Notes: generated by a model from the sequence alone, not told the origin. Positions 7,322 to 58,810 are shown, counted from the first letter of the whole stretch. The stretch is 63,518 nt of DNA, filler included, from Octopus bimaculoides (GCF_001194135.2; 5 parts of 5 records of this genome joined end to end with filler, not necessarily neighbours in it), one strand, 5' to 3'. A program made the numbers and translations.

Positions 7322-8133
7322 GGCGCAGGAGTGGTTGTGTGGTTAGAAACTTGTTTCCGGTTTGACGATTTCGGTCGTGTTACTTTCTGTGCTGTGAGTT
7401 ATCGTTTTTATTGCTGAAACTTTGTTATTTGTAGTAAATTTTTTGTTCTAAATTATTGTTGAAAATTGTTATTTTGAACTGTTGCCTGTTTACCGGCTGT
7501 GTTGAACTGTTTTATTTCCCGGTATTCCGGGGAAGAGTGAAATTTCTGTCGCCATTTTGGTATTTGTTTATTCGATTGGATTCTTTAACGGAGTACTGGA
7601 ACCAGGTAAGTGGGGCCAAAAATAAAGGTTCGAACCTGGCAGTCGGATGCCTTTCCTTCAGTCACACGTTGCAAAATTTACAATGATTACCAACTTTAAA
7701 TTGAAATTAAAAAAGAAAAAAAAGGAGATAATTTTTAAGAGCGTGACATTTATATTTCATCATTCGAAATATTTCCATTCATAATAAGCAAATTCTTCAC
7801 TCTCCATGTTTGTCTGCCCTTATTTGTCCCATCTATCTACGACTTCCATAGCCAATTCATGAAATAAAGAAGCTTGCTTCCCAACCACATGGTTTCGGGT
7901 TCAGTTCCACTGCGTGGCACCTTGGGCAGGTGTCTTCTACTATAGCCTCAGGCCGACCAAAACATTGAGAGTGGATTTGGTAGACGGAAACTGAAAGAAG
8001 TCCGTCGTATATATATATATGTGTGTGTGTGTGTGTGTGTGTGTGTTTGTGTTTGTCCTGCCACCATCGCTTGAAATCGGTGTTGGTGTGTTTACGTCCC
8101 CTTAAGTTACCGGTCAGCAAAATAATCCGAAAA
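7322..8133 (+). mobile_element. SINE family A split by an insertion (head 7322-7358, body 7867-8133)
   Basis: The head ends ...agaaacttgtttcc and the body resumes aagaagcttgcttcccaaccacatgg. Confidence 0.9.
7359..7866 (+). mobile_element. 508-bp non-coding retro-insertion ending in AATAAA with a ~15-bp TSD; likely a non-autonomous Tx1/L1-type derivative
   Basis: TSD tagaaacttgtttcc (7344-7358) versus aagaagcttgcttcc (7867-7881), 12/15 identical. The 3' end is catgaaataaa. Confidence 0.7.
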
Positions 8134-8624
8134 NNNNNNNNNNNNNNNNNNNNNNNNNNNNNNNNNNNNNNNNNNNNTTAATTAATTAANNNNNNNNNNN
8201 NNNNNNNNNNNNNNNNNNNNNNNNNNNNNNNNNATATATATATATATATATATATATATATATGCACATATTTTTGCGTATTATTATGTATGTATTGCAT
8301 TTATGTTCGCTGTGTGTTTGTGTGACGTGTGTGTATGTGTGTATGTGTGCACGTGTTTCTGCGTGCGAGTTTCTGTTGCGTCTGTTATACATATACATAT
8401 AAACATACTTGCATAAACAAAATCACAAATGCATCTTTACGTATATGAATGCGTATGCTATTATGCCTATGCGCCGATACAAACAAATAATTTGGCACTT
8501 TAAATTCTAAGAGTAAAAACAAAACAAAACAAACAATACTTCAATAGCTTTCCGAACAAATAACTATTGCAGTAAGCATCATTAGAATTTTCGTTTGTAC
8601 TCCAAACAAACATTCTATGTTTAG

Positions 8625-8742
8625 ACAGCAAATAATACCGCCATGGAAATCAGCCAAATCAGTACAAACACCATCTTGTTCATTTAAATACTATTTCAAT
8701 GAAAAATATATTTGGATAATGCTTCATCGAACATTCAGCTCG
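8625..8742 (+). CDS. Exon E (118 bp, phase 2-0; KQQIIPPWKSAKSVQTPSCSFKYYFNEKYIWIMLHRTFSS)
   Basis: Acceptor ttctatgtttag| and donor |gtaatg. Lies inside listed ORF 8617..8820. Confidence 0.65.
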
Positions 8743-10029
8743 GTAATGAGTCCCAAATTATGGTTTCAAGACTGCTATGCTTCAATTGCTTACAATATTT
8801 ATTTTAGATTCGATGATTAAAGAAATTAAATACTTATTAAATACTCTCAAATAATGGGAATAATCATGTAACACTGATGATATTCACGATCTATTTCTGT
8901 AAAAATTATTGTAGTGTGAATGCAGCGAGACCGAGAGAGCGTTTCTTTATTGATGGGTTCACGTCCATAAAATATTATCTGATATATATATATATATATA
9001 TATATATATATATATANNNNNNNNNNNNNNNNNNNNNNNNNNNNNNNNNNNNNNNNNNNNNNNNNNNNNNNNNNNNNNNNNNNNNNNNNNNNNNNNNNNN
9101 NNNNNNNNNNNNNNNNNNNNNNNNNNNNNNNNNNNNNNNNNNNNNNNNNNNNNNNNNNNNNNNNNNNNNNNNNNNNNNNNNNNNNNNNNNNNNNNNNNNN
9201 NNNNNNNNNNNNNNNNNNNNNNNNNNNNNNNNNNNNNNNNNNNNNNNNNNNNNNNNNNNNNNNNNNNNNNNNNNNNNNNNNNNNNNNNNNNNNNNNNNNN
9301 NNNNNNNNNNNNNNNNNNNNNNNNNNNNNNNNNNNNNNNNNNNNNNNNNNNNNNNNNNNNNNNNNNNNNNNNNNNNNNNNNNNNNNNNNNNNNNNNNNNN
9401 NNNNNNNNNNNNNNNNNNNNNNNNNNNNNNNNNNNNNNNNNNNNNNNNNNNNNNNNNNNNNNNNNNNNNNNNNNNNNNNNNNNNNNNNNNNNNNNNNNNN
9501 NNNNNNNNNNNNNNNNNNNNNNNNNNNNNNNNNNNNNNNNNNNNNNNNNNNNNNNNNNNNNNNNNNNNNNNNNNNNNNNNNNNNNNNNNNNNNNNNNNNN
9601 NNNNNNNNNNNNNNNNNNNNNNNNNNNNNNNNNNNNNNNNNNNNNNNNNNNNNNNNNNNNNNNNNNNNNNNNNNNNNNNNNNNNNNNNNNNNNNNNNNNN
9701 NNNNNNNNNNNNNNNNNNNNNNNNNNNNNNNNNNNNNNNNNNNNNNNNNNNNNNNNNNNNNNNNNNNNNNNNNNNNNNNNNNNNNNNNNNNNNNNNNNNN
9801 NNNNNNNNNNNNNNNNNNNNNNNNNNNNNNNNNNNNNNNNNNNNNNNNNNNNNNNNNNNNNNNNNNNNNNNNNNNNNNNNNNNNNNNNNNNNNNNNNNNN
9901 NNNNNNNNNNNNNNNNNNNNNNNNNNNNNNNNNNNNNNNATATATATATATATATATATATATATATATATATATATATATATATACGTATATGTGTGTG
10001 TGTGTGTGCGTGTATGTGTGATCAAGACT

Positions 10030-10245
10030 TTATGTCAGTGCTTGGTCCCCTTAACAACTTGACAAACGGCGCTACTGTATTTACATCCCTGTAACCTAGC
10101 GGTGCAAAAAAAGAGACTGATAGAATCAGTACTAGGCTTTAGATATAAGTCCTGGAATCGATTTGTTCGACTAAAACACTTCAAGGTGGTGCTCCAGCAT
10201 GGCCGCAGTCAAATGATTGAAATAACTAAAAGAAATAAAAAGAAA
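10030..10245 (+). mobile_element. SINE family A 3' half
   Basis: gtaacctagcggt...gatagaatcagtactagg...ggtgctccagcatggccgcagtcaaatga. Confidence 0.85.
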
Positions 10246-56829: not shown

Positions 56830-57077
56830 GAGTAAAGATTATTTGCCAATATAACATGGCAGTTCTGGTTTAGGACGAATGTTGCTGTAATTTAGTCCCA
56901 GGAGACATCGTCTCCAGCTGGCTATGCGACACAGTCTGTGTCCTTATATGTTCGAAAATATAGGGACACAGATTACGTCGTATAGCCAACTGGAGATGAT
57001 GTATCCTGGGGTTAAATTACAGCAACATTCGTCCTGAACCAGGACTGCCATGTTATATTGGCAAATAATCTTTACTC
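56830..57077. repeat. 248-bp near-perfect palindrome or fold-back element (120-bp arms, 8-nt centre gttcgaaa)
   Basis: gagtaaagattatttgccaatataacatggcag...gtgtccttatat pairs with atatagggacac...ctgccatgttatattggcaaataatctttactc. Confidence 0.93.
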
Positions 57078-57895
57078 TAGAGTACTGTTGCTGAATATCT
57101 GTCATTGAGAGATTTACAAATAGTAATTTTCTAGTTCATCCGATGTTCTAACGATTTTGCCAAAACGTATTCCCGTCCACCAAATCCACTCACAAGGGTT
57201 TAGTCAACTCGGGGTTAGGGGAGAAGAAACCCAATGTCGGACTGAAACCATTTGGTCTCGAGTTCAGTCCCACAGCATGAAACCTTGGGCGAGTGAATTC
57301 TACTAAAACCTCGGGCCGACCAAAGCCGACGGAGACCAAAAGAAACCGATCGTGTGTATATGTGTGTGTGTGTGTGTGTGTGTTTCTTTGTGTTTTGTCA
57401 CCTACCACCGTATGAAAACCGGTGCTGCTTTGTTTACGACCAAGTAATTTAGCATTTCGGCGAATAAGTACCAGATTTAAGACAAATGTGCTGAGGTCTT
57501 TTTGTACGACTAAACCCTTCAGGGTGGTGCCCCCGCATGGCCGCATTTAAATGGGTGAGACAAGTAACACACACACATATGTATGTTTTTATGTCTATAT
57601 ACATATATGTGTGTGTATATATACATATATATATGCATGCATGTATGTATTATGTATATATATGTATATATATATAAGTTCAAAAAAAAAGGAAAAAGAC
57701 AAAAACAACAACAAAAAACAAGAACGTGAGGACGTGATACAGATTGTGTTACAAGACGCTCGGGAAAGGAAAGAGAGAGAGAGTATGACGTTTCGNNNNN
57801 NNNNNNNNNNNNNNNNNNNNNNNNNNNNNNNNNNNNNNNTTAATTAATTAANNNNNNNNNNNNNNNNNNNNNNNNNNNNNNNNNNNNNNNNNNNN

Positions 57896-57931
57896 GCGCA
57901 GGTATGGCTATGTGGTAAGAAGCTTACTTCC
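57896..57931 (+). mobile_element. SINE family A head cut at the same nucleotide as the 7322 copy
   Basis: gcgcaggtatggctatgtggtaagaagcttacttcc|ggtatag. Confidence 0.8.
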
Positions 57932-58810
57932 GGTATAGTCTTTGTCGGTCGAATTGTTGTCGTTCGGCGTTACACACATGATTTTTTGGTTGTCTTGGCG
58001 GTACGATGTTTTTCCTCTTGTATAATGGTTTGAATTGTTCTGTTTCAGACGTTGTAAACTACCCTTCATCTGACTTTGTGAGGTTTGAAGAAGAAATGGT
58101 GGAGTGTATAAAGAAGATAGACGAAGCAATGGAAGCAGGAAACTATGCTGCAGCGACAAAAGAAAACAACAAGCGAAGATGTGAGGCTGGAGGATGTGAG
58201 CAAGTTCAAGGGAATGCTTAAAAGGGAGGGGAACGAAGTGAAGGTGTTCCCCCACCAAAGAAGTTTTAAAGGAAGCAGCAGAAAGGACAATATTTTGCTG
58301 AAAATACTCGGTGGCAGCAAGGAAGATCGAGATTATGTGAACGGCTGAAATAGAAAAGGCAGCGAGACTCATCTGACTAATCTGGATTTCCTGCCTTGCC
58401 AGAGGAAAACAGTTTGGAACGGTGGAGGTGCAGTTCAGAAAGGTAGCTACCGCCAGGCTGCACTCAGCAGCACTGCTGAAAACGGATGAAGTGGTTCTTC
58501 TACCCGCATACCTTGGGAGACGTGCTTCTGGGGTTAGGGTGGAGGAAATAACCCCGGAAGTGGATGTAGCCTGGCTGGTGGCTGCCATACTGCTAGGCAT
58601 GAAGGAAAAGGTGGTGGTCCTCCAGGCCAGCAGAACACCCCATTGGAACTGGCAGGGACAAACCCTTGATATGGTGGTGCAAGTCGCGGAAGAAGACAGA
58701 AAAGATGGTCGAGACCACCACGGTAGGAGAGACAATATTGAAAGTCAGAGTGGAAGGGAGGATTCCGCGGTACTATAAATGTGGCCTGCGAGTGGTGGGT
58801 CAAAAAAAAT
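57932..58810 (+). mobile_element. 5' UTR plus degenerate gag-like ORF1 of a probable Tx1/L1-clade LINE
   Basis: LLPAYLGRRASGVRVEEITPEVDVAWLVAAIL...WNWQG, then a frameshifted KVRVEGRIPRYYKCGLR resembling the VEGR.P.C..CG..GH zinc-knuckle lead-in. Confidence 0.6.

What the first reader, a model, noticed from the sequence alone, without database searches (positions are those of the whole stretch)
7322..58810. Candidate SINE-targeting retrotransposon: two independent insertions at the same nucleotide of the SINE tRNA-like head
Seen: two SINE-A heads (7322-7358 and 57896-57931) both break exactly after ...AGAAGCTT(G/A)CTTCC, where intact copies continue CAACCACATGG. Both are followed by foreign sequence that starts GGT and has TCGGTCG within about 20 nt (ggtttgacgatttcggtcg; ggtatagtctttgtcggtcg). 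At 7359 the insert is complete: it ends in AATAAA, and the SINE resumes with a ~15-bp duplication of the target. At 57932 the insert carries a gag-like ORF1 with a zinc-knuckle lead-in. Established: Tx1-clade LINEs use APE endonucleases to target multicopy sequences such as tRNA, U2, 5S and microsatellites. Inference: a family that uses a very abundant SINE head as its target, or that spilled over onto it from a tRNA target. This would be a retrotransposon parasitising a SINE. I do not know of a description of it.
Basis: partly seen in the sequence, partly recalled or inferred. Interest (0 to 1): 0.82.

Follow-up and report, generated by a model that had tools for sequence, protein, structure and literature searches.

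The report
Retrotransposons landing in one SINE nucleotide
In an octopus-like genome, two different pieces of inserted DNA, one carrying a decayed retrotransposon gene, sit at exactly the same nucleotide of a very abundant short repeat (a SINE), and further copies join the repeat at that site, which likely reflects jumping genes that home in on the SINE, a known habit with a probably unreported target.

Summary
The core observation holds. Two SINE heads (7322-7358, 57896-57931) break at the same nucleotide. At locus 1 the SINE resumes after 508 bp with a 15-bp duplication (12 of 15 match). Locus 2 carries a decayed LINE-type ORF1 (predicted tandem RRM-like fold plus CCHC knuckle) whose named relatives are Octopus proteins. 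Public contigs confirm locus 1 letter for letter. They show that its insert is a low-copy, likely internally deleted element, and that at least two other loci join a related 3' end to the SINE in the same register; 34-35 contigs and 18 RNA reads share a variant letter beside that junction. Corrections: locus 1's head does not read AGAAGCTT(G/A)CTTCC, its insert is not a complete element, the two inserts are not demonstrably related, and locus 2 has no ORF2 or 3' junction. So Tx1 membership and strict specificity are untested. Best reading: a target-preferring L1/Tx1-type lineage that nicks and primes at the SINE's AAGAA (0.55). Main rival: an ordinary insertion hotspot in a repeat with roughly 10^5 or more copies. 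LINEs aimed at other transposons are known; I found no published SINE target.

The parts
7322..7358 (+). 5' part of the tRNA-like SINE head (A-box-like TGGTTGTGTGG), interrupted; ends in the 5' copy of the duplication
7344..7358 (+). 5' copy of the 15-bp target-site duplication (3 differences from the 3' copy)
   Evidence: most laid copies carry A at 7344 and G at 7349
7359..7595 (+). Insert 1, 5' part (T-rich, UTR-like). Related contigs stop aligning at 7531 or 7592-7596; records 2, 17, 3 and 18 carry 254 to over 1000 further unaligned letters
   Evidence: records 2, 3, 4, 17, 18, 19
7595..7866 (+). Insert 1, 3' part. Related contigs begin aligning at 7595, which suggests an internal deletion; 6-nt (frame-keeping) insertions at 7617 and 7623 in other copies hint at a coding remnant
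   Evidence: records 6, 7, 21 and table 4; no Pfam hit for 7610-7696
7809..7834 (+). 3' tail motif shared with the tail of a second SINE family in the window (21228-, 30336-)
   Evidence: 0 of 500 and 2 of 500 shuffles reach the score
7863..7871 (+). AATAAAGAA: element end overlapping the target AAGAA (likely priming microhomology)
   Evidence: sequence; similar ends at 21228, 30336 and 33440
7867..7881 (+). 3' copy of the duplication; tRNA-equivalent positions 21-35 when counted back from the B box with a 5-nt variable loop
7867..8010 (+). Resumed SINE body (B-box-like GGTTCAGTTCC), followed by a TA/TG tract and the SINE tail
   Evidence: summed contig depth 1.3e5-3.7e5 times single-copy depth at two places sampled (not a true copy number)
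57896..57931 (+). Second SINE head, broken at the same nucleotide; N gap immediately upstream
57932..58791 (+). Insert 2: 5' UTR and decayed LINE-type ORF1 (homology 58178-58791 over several frames; predicted tandem RRM-like fold; ends inside the CCHC knuckle)
32539..32702 (-). Uninterrupted SINE copy of the same AAGAA...TTCCC type (comparator, empty site)

Best explanation
Two inserts, one carrying a decayed LINE-type ORF1, sit at the same nucleotide of an abundant octopus SINE head, and they likely come from a LINE lineage (probably L1/Tx1-type) that prefers this site. Shown: same break point and same orientation at both loci; a 15-bp duplication at locus 1; other copies with the same 3' junction. 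Inferred mechanism (target-primed reverse transcription): the element's endonuclease would nick the bottom strand at 5'-TTCTT^A (top strand GGT^AAGAAG). The freed 3' end TTCTT would pair with the RNA's ...AAUAAAGAA end and prime cDNA synthesis. The top strand would be cut 15 nt downstream at TTCC^CAA, in the anticodon-loop equivalent, which gives the duplication and the fixed 5' break. Insert 1 is likely a non-autonomous, internally deleted copy; insert 2 is the 5' end of an ORF1-coding copy that later lost its 3' part. Insertion separates the SINE's A box from its B box and would silence that SINE copy, while the LINE would gain a very large pool of harmless targets.
For: Same-nucleotide break in 2 of 7 head-bearing pieces, with the other 5 intact. 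The inserts are unalike, so these are separate events. X1 record 8 (single-copy depth 41.7; 7744-7905; 24 differences, no gaps) and X6 record 22 (depth 54; 7778-8000; 32 differences, 11 gaps; 171 letters upstream do not align) are other loci with a related 3' end running into the SINE in register. At 7858, 9 nt before the junction, T replaces C in 97% of depth in X1 (34 contigs), 96% in X6 (35 contigs) and 18 of 18 RNA reads (11 starts). Chance extension from the SINE into unrelated flanks gives T in 0-19% of cases, depending on the mismatch penalty (388 of 1992, 10 of 66, 0 of 8), so this is a family end. No RNA read covers 7812-7837, so those reads must lie mainly on the SINE side (inference). 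The insert family is small (3-28 times single-copy depth) and structurally varied, which argues against one composite unit. ORF1 architecture fits LINE type I: tandem-RRM top hits at E 3.5e-3 to 5e-3, CCHC, ZCCHC3-RBD-like Atlas neighbour at 0.90, PMC4120745. Tx1 families that target other transposons at fixed positions are published (PMC4494074), and L1-Tx1 is listed as recently active in O. vulgaris (PMC13282606).
Against: The share of family copies that sit in the SINE was not obtained, and neither was the break histogram (1049 loose-end rows hidden). TAAGAA occurs 38 times in the window, 2 of them in these heads. Under a motif-only null of 5%, 2 or more junctions among 14 other copies has P=0.15 (0.03 at 2%), so the two listed records alone do not exclude a hotspot. 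Contigs are not loci, depth near the SINE is inflated, and not every T-bearing contig was shown to continue into the SINE. The two inserts show no significant homology. A second SINE family with a related tail lies outside SINE heads at 21228 and 30336, so related machinery is not site-bound. Locus 2 has n=1, no 3' junction and no upstream flank. No RT or endonuclease was seen. The duplication is imperfect (12 of 15), with all three changes in the 5' copy.
Confidence: 0.55

Rival explanations
1. Ordinary hotspot. A non-specific L1-type LINE nicks any pyrimidine-run/A site and primes best where AAGAA matches its own AATAAAGAA end. The SINE supplies that motif very many times, so nested insertions pile up at one nucleotide although most copies lie elsewhere.
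For: Single-nucleotide, sense-orientation hotspots of Alu in Alu and other nested hotspots are documented (PMC2836564, section 13). Two unrelated-looking inserts use the site. A related tail occurs outside SINE heads. Motif-only null P=0.03-0.15 for the listed records. Both interrupted heads are of the AAGAA type; none of the four AAGTAG/AAATAG-type heads is interrupted (tiny n).
Against: Both 5' junctions fall at the same nucleotide, which needs the same second cut as well. 34-35 contigs share a family letter beside the junction, against 8-14 contigs with the family variants 16-21 nt further in.
Confidence: 0.22
2. Composite or head capture. The SINE head is a fixed 5' addition to the LINE (template switch or read-through), or head-insert-body was copied as one unit, so the shared break is inherited rather than repeated.
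For: Tx1-Mar families carry U1/U2-derived 5' heads (PMC4494074). Locus 2 shows only the 5' side. The locus-1 duplication has 3 mismatches, all on the 5' copy.
Against: At locus 1 the SINE resumes with a duplication. Other family members differ in internal length, and record 22 stops aligning at 7778. The two inserts differ from the fourth base on.
Confidence: 0.11
3. Spill-over from a tRNA-gene target. The lineage recognises a real tRNA gene (the head's loop reads TT-CCC-AA, Gly-like, by counting from the B box) and hits the SINE because it looks alike.
For: The site spans tRNA-equivalent positions 21-35. tRNA-gene-targeting non-LTR families exist (NeSL-1_TV, LIN15_SM, LIN25_SM; PMC4640811).
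Against: No tRNA gene is available in the window (0 found). The head gives no Rfam tRNA match, so it appears well diverged from tRNA. All junctions seen here are in the SINE, but only the SINE was used as bait.
Confidence: 0.09
4. Assembly artefact or coincidence.
For: The assembly is gappy (8860 N), and locus 2's head starts at a gap edge.
Against: Locus 1 is matched without a difference by contigs of two studies, and other junction copies exist.
Confidence: 0.03

Closest known systems
Tx1-clade LINEs that target other transposons: Tx1L in Tx1D (Xenopus), Tx1-Mar in Mariner-N4_AMi, Tx1-8_Crp and Tx1-4_AMi in LTR elements, Tx1-9_AMi in Harbinger (PMC4494074; passages and part 3 of 5 read)
   Same: Recurrent insertion at fixed positions and orientation inside an interspersed repeat; non-autonomous passengers share the site.
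   Different: Here the target is a tRNA-like SINE head, and one nucleotide rather than a region. Clade membership is untested (no ORF2). The share of copies on target is unknown.
Small-RNA-gene-targeting non-LTR elements: Keno (U2; PMC4494074), Utopia (U2), NeSL-1_TV, LIN15_SM and LIN25_SM (tRNA genes; PMC4640811, passages read); Dewa and Mutsu (recalled, not read)
   Same: The target is a multicopy sequence of small-RNA type; the site lies inside the RNA-coding part.
   Different: The target here is a selfish SINE, not a host gene. Utopia is placed among RLE-type (NeSL-related) elements, whereas this element has a separate RRM-CCHC ORF1.
Nested-insertion hotspots of non-specific L1 machinery, e.g. 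Alu into Alu position 133 (PMC2836564; abstract and section 13 read)
   Same: Single-nucleotide, sense-orientation hotspot inside a very abundant SINE.
   Different: There the inserted element is the SINE itself and most copies lie elsewhere. Here the inserts are LINE-type, with a 15-bp duplication; whether most copies are on target is the open question.
Dada DNA transposons (tRNA/snRNA gene targets; PMC8869645, word search only; PMC3706591, listing only)
   Same: Targeting of tRNA-type sequence (sites near the anticodon are recalled from the abstract, not read in a call).
   Different: Those are DNA transposons; this element has a gag-like ORF1 and a LINE-like 3' tail. The word SINE does not occur in PMC8869645.

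Membership tests
non-LTR retrotransposon (LINE or derivative) | ORF1 of a LINE type (RRM upstream of a CCHC knuckle) | tested here: met
   Locus 2 only. 256 relatives; knuckle in 8 of 17 members; model pLDDT 74 of relative P0001; top Foldseek hits are tandem RRMs at E 3.5e-3, none at E<=0.001. Not met for insert 1.
non-LTR retrotransposon (LINE or derivative) | No LTRs or terminal inverted repeats; variable-length TSD; 3' tail | tested here: met
   Insert 1: 0 direct-repeat families and one weak internal inverted pair; 15-bp duplication, 12 of 15; tail shared with a SINE family; no poly(A).
non-LTR retrotransposon (LINE or derivative) | ORF2 with reverse transcriptase | not testable with these tools
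   Locus 2 ends at 58791; no genome is held; two searches for longer, fused relatives were empty.
Tx1 clade | RT phylogeny groups with Tx1/Keno/Kibi/Koshi | not testable with these tools
   No RT sequence was obtained.
Tx1 clade | APE endonuclease | not testable with these tools
   No ORF2. A type I ORF1 is shared by the I, Jockey, R1, Tad1, plant L1, L2 and CR1 groups (PMC4120745), so ORF1 does not fix the clade.
target-specific non-LTR element (criterion of PMC4494074) | More than 20% of a family's copies flanked by the same repeat type | tested here: inconclusive
   At least 3 loci (own plus records 8 and 22) among roughly 10-15 copy-equivalents of the 3' end. The other copies' flanks were not visible.
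target-specific non-LTR element (criterion of PMC4494074) | Independent insertions at the same nucleotide | tested here: met
   Two unalike inserts share the 5' break; further 3' junctions are in register. Independence of those further loci is inferred, not shown.
tRNA-derived SINE (the target) | tRNA-like head with A and B boxes | tested here: inconclusive
   A- and B-box-like motifs and a YT-NNN-AA loop appear by counting, but ARAGORN found 0, Rfam gave no tRNA match and there is no cloverleaf fold. tRNA-type SINEs dominate octopus repeats (PMC8967140).
tRNA-gene-targeting element | Copies inserted in real tRNA genes | not testable with these tools
   No octopus tRNA gene set was available.
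Dada DNA transposon | DDE transposase | tested here: not met
   Insert 2 encodes a gag-like ORF1. The DDE_3 hit at 59057-59347 belongs to a separate downstream element.

The most novel reading that the evidence does not exclude
An octopus LINE lineage, already split into several unalike families, uses the tRNA-like head of one of the genome's most abundant SINEs as its main, nucleotide-exact target. It would be a parasite of a parasite that disables the SINE's promoter at each insertion and whose safe-haven supply grows as the SINE spreads.
Probability: 0.4. Interest if true: 0.68.

Novelty: new variant of a known kind. Interest (0 to 1): 0.47.

Why it matters
If confirmed, SINEs join rRNA, snRNA and tRNA genes, microsatellites, DNA transposons and LTR elements as targets of site-preferring LINEs. 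It would be a testable case of how an endonuclease shifts from a generic pyrimidine/A preference (or a tRNA gene) to a selfish repeat, with primer-template pairing (AAGAA) as a second determinant. It would also link LINE and SINE dynamics in octopus, where SINEs make up about 12% of the O. vulgaris genome (PMC13282606). The principle (LINEs aiming at other transposons) is known, so this adds a target rather than a new system.

Tried and rejected
No whole genome is held, so the genome-wide histogram could not be made. DNA pattern scans found nothing in viral contigs, metagenome contigs or genome contigs. ORF1 locus searches returned no usable DNA: one search reported 2 relatives but 0 loci; two searches found none; could not use the alignment. 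Searches for longer, fused ORF1-ORF2 models were empty (weak evidence by the tool's own note). A search for predicted peptides reading across the 3' junction found no candidate. The Atlas gave nothing for the window's ORF1 piece. A proposed homology between 7540-7610 and the start of ORF1 was rejected (HMM and BLAST). Rejected as support: contigs whose head appears to run 4 nt into the insert (to 7362, deduced from the distance column), because that is too short to beat chance; and organism B (X15), where one contig of depth 3 shows the 7858 variant and heads end at 7358. The joint 7343 to 7867 only reflects intact SINE copies. Folding of two heads and of the insert tail gave nothing beyond shuffles. 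Runs X15-X20 had small word shares and are not used as evidence of range. Literature searches found no description of a SINE-targeting LINE in octopus or elsewhere. Repbase entries, subscription papers (Kojima and Fujiwara 2004; Ohshima and Okada 1994) and unread supplements (PMC13282606 listed only; PMC4494074 figs S3-S6 not opened) could hold one.
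Full report
SETTING. The window is gappy animal DNA (8860 N of 63518). No whole genome is held. Relatives of the ORF at locus 2 that carry a species name come from Octopus bimaculoides, O. 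vulgaris and O. sinensis (8 of 20 looked up), so the genome is taken to be an octopus. Naming the SINE family precisely was not possible; octopus tRNA-derived SINEs are cited in PMC3531059 and PMC10886601 (reference lists only).

THE OBSERVATION. Locus 1 reads: SINE head 7322-7358, a 508-bp insert 7359-7866, then the SINE again from 7867. The 15 bases before the insert (TAGAAACTTGTTTCC) recur after it (AAGAAGCTTGCTTCC) with 3 differences; the finding's quoted motif is therefore not exact at this head. Locus 2 reads: N gap, head 57896-57931, then foreign sequence from 57932. Both heads stop at the same base. Five other head-bearing copies in the window run through the site. Counting back from the B box with a 5-nt variable loop, the duplication spans tRNA-equivalent positions 21-35, so the break is in the anticodon-loop equivalent. 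This numbering is an inference; ARAGORN and Rfam do not call the head a tRNA.

ARE THE INSERTS RELATED? Not demonstrably. The shared GGT...TCGGTCG scores better than 966 of 1000 shuffles over 25 nt, but that length was chosen after seeing the match, and the signal is gone at 40, 60 and 100 nt (175, 167 and 303 of 1000 reach it). Insert 1 has no match to an ORF1 profile or to any of the 150 fetched proteins. This weakens 'one family' but means the two events are separate.

INSERT 2. The frame 58377-58775 has 256 relatives at E<=0.001 among 1.84 billion representatives. Homology spans 58178-58791 over several frames and stops inside the knuckle. Relatives carry a Pfam zinc knuckle (8 of 17 members at a loose cut-off, best E 3.6e-06). 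A model of relative P0001 (33-sequence alignment, pLDDT 74) has tandem-RRM proteins as its best Foldseek hits, E 3.5e-3 to 5e-3, none at E<=0.001. The Atlas places relative P0033 near CCHC, RRM and ZCCHC3-RBD clusters at 0.90-0.92. This is a type I LINE ORF1, which occurs in many clades (PMC4120745, passages), so it does not prove Tx1. Downstream lies unrelated DNA and a Tc1/mariner-like element. There is no ORF2 and no 3' junction.

INSERT 1 IN PUBLIC DATA. I laid 4 of the 24 runs from then on 7240-8005 at 80% likeness: two DNA contig sets from different studies (X1, X6), raw RNA reads (X21, about 6% of the run) and RNA contigs of another organism (X15). X1 has two contigs identical to 7240-7479 and 7462-7885, and X6 one identical to 7462-7885, so the locus is real. 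Depth over the insert is 3-28 times the single-copy level: a small repeat family. Five listed records stop or start at 7592-7596 with over 100 unaligned letters beyond (3, 18, 6, 7, 21), two more end there near their own ends (4, 19), and two (2, 17) run on for over 1000 letters past 7531. Insert 1 is therefore likely an internally deleted copy of a longer element. Its tail (7809-7834) matches the tail of a second SINE family in the window (0 of 500 and 2 of 500 shuffles), as expected for a LINE-derived 3' end. RNA depth over the insert is near zero.

OTHER JUNCTIONS. Two listed contigs of single-copy depth carry a diverged insert end running into the SINE in register: X1 record 8 (7744-7905; 24 differences, 0 gaps) and X6 record 22 (7778-8000; 32 differences, 11 gaps). 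Record 22 has 171 upstream letters that do not align where record 8 does, so they are probably different loci. At 7858 a T replaces the window's C in 8152 of 8370 depth (34 contigs, X1), 9839 of 10252 (35 contigs, X6) and 18 of 18 RNA reads (11 starts). In a simulation over 107,369 window flanks, chance extension past this point gave T in 388 of 1992, 10 of 66 and 0 of 8 cases under three penalties. The T is thus a family letter, which suggests tens of related 3' ends at this site. Limits: contigs are not loci; depth is inflated by SINE words; the tool did not count all events; and the loose-end table showed only intact heads and tails, with 1049 rows hidden, so there is no break histogram and no count of off-target copies.

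HOW MUCH COULD A PLAIN MOTIF EXPLAIN? Random insertion at this nucleotide has a chance near 1e-4 per copy (my estimate from the depth ratio and about 2.3 Gb of contigs) and is excluded. A motif-driven process is not excluded: 2 of 38 TAAGAA sites in the window are in these heads, and at 2-5% per copy, two or more junctions among 14 other copies have P=0.03-0.15. Single-nucleotide hotspots in SINEs arise with non-specific L1 machinery (PMC2836564, abstract and section 13). The shared 5' break and the many T-bearing contigs tip the balance towards real target preference, but do not settle it.

MECHANISM. Shown: site, orientation, duplication, family structure, ORF1 type. Inferred: target-primed reverse transcription with a first nick at bottom-strand TTCTT^A (close to the pyrimidine-run/A preference of L1-type endonucleases; recalled), pairing of the primer's TTCTT with the RNA's AAUAAAGAA end, and a second cut 15 nt downstream. 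The insertion would split the SINE's A and B boxes. I put this target-preferring lineage at 0.55, a plain hotspot at 0.22, composite or head capture at 0.11, tRNA spill-over at 0.09 and artefact at 0.03.

COMPARISON. PMC4494074 (passages, and part 3 of 5) describes Tx1 families inserted into a piggyBac derivative, Mariner, Harbinger and LTR elements, and sets a 20%-of-flanks criterion. It also shows Tx1 families with captured snRNA heads. [quoted passage not shown] Octopus repeat papers list L1-Tx1 but say nothing of such targeting in what I saw: PMC13282606 (part 1 of 3 and a word search with no 'target' or 'nested'), PMC8967140 (passages) and PMC9115989 (passages). PMC3747384 (passages) only notes Tx1's target specificity. 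Nine searches found no SINE-targeting LINE; Repbase and closed papers were out of reach. The element works like a Tx1-type target-specific LINE; membership of Tx1 is untested.

EARLIER SCAN NOTES. Three AI notes from other genomes report LINEs at one nucleotide of a SINE, and one reports LINE-in-LINE targeting. None matches this sequence. They are unchecked leads that the pattern may recur, not support.

VERDICT. A real, recurrent, nucleotide-exact nesting of LINE-type elements in an octopus SINE head. It is a new variant of a known kind if specificity holds. Interest 0.47.

Noticed in passing
window 59058-60069 (-): Decayed Tc1/mariner-like DNA transposon: 61-nt inverted arms at 79% and a DDE_3 fragment at 59057-59347, E 1.7e-08, about 270 bp after the point where the locus-2 ORF1 stops.
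   Followed up: partly
window 21228 (-), 30336 (-), 33380-33450 (+): A second SINE family has a 3' tail like that of insert 1 and ends in A(A/G)TAAAGA(A), suggesting that a relative of the insert-1 LINE mobilises it. The 33440 element also ends AATAAAGAA but is otherwise unlike insert 1 (187 of 500 shuffles).
   Followed up: partly
SINE heads at 1639, 20629, 47064, 55690 versus 7867, 32701, 57896: Two head variants at the target: AAGTAG/AAATAG...(mostly TTACC) and AAGAAG/AAGAAA...TTCC(C). Both interrupted copies are of the second type (2 of 3 versus 0 of 4), a possible escape variant; n is tiny.
   Followed up: no
window 6560-7100 (-): Fragment that reads like an RTE/R2-type LINE ORF (…IRPPASRVPFAIGEMTMKEVRGN) just upstream of locus 1; family label is my recall, not searched.
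   Followed up: no
window 24276-24722 (+): 148-aa open frame with three C2H2-like motifs (CxxC...HxxxH), possibly the C-terminal tail of a LINE or a zinc-finger exon.
   Followed up: no
window 46118-46427, 49586-49852, 55021-55186: Repeat pieces matching a spurious stretch of Octopus gene model P0055, showing that repeats, including this ORF1, are absorbed into host gene models (P0055 with LDL-receptor repeats, P0122 with astacin).
   Followed up: no
window 57839-57850, 8178-8189, 32459-32470, 61697-61708 (approximate): N gaps contain an identical TTAATTAATTAA spacer, likely a scaffolding marker and not genomic DNA.
   Followed up: no
window 61520-61652: Short tandem array of a roughly 31-nt unit running into a gap (seen).
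   Followed up: no
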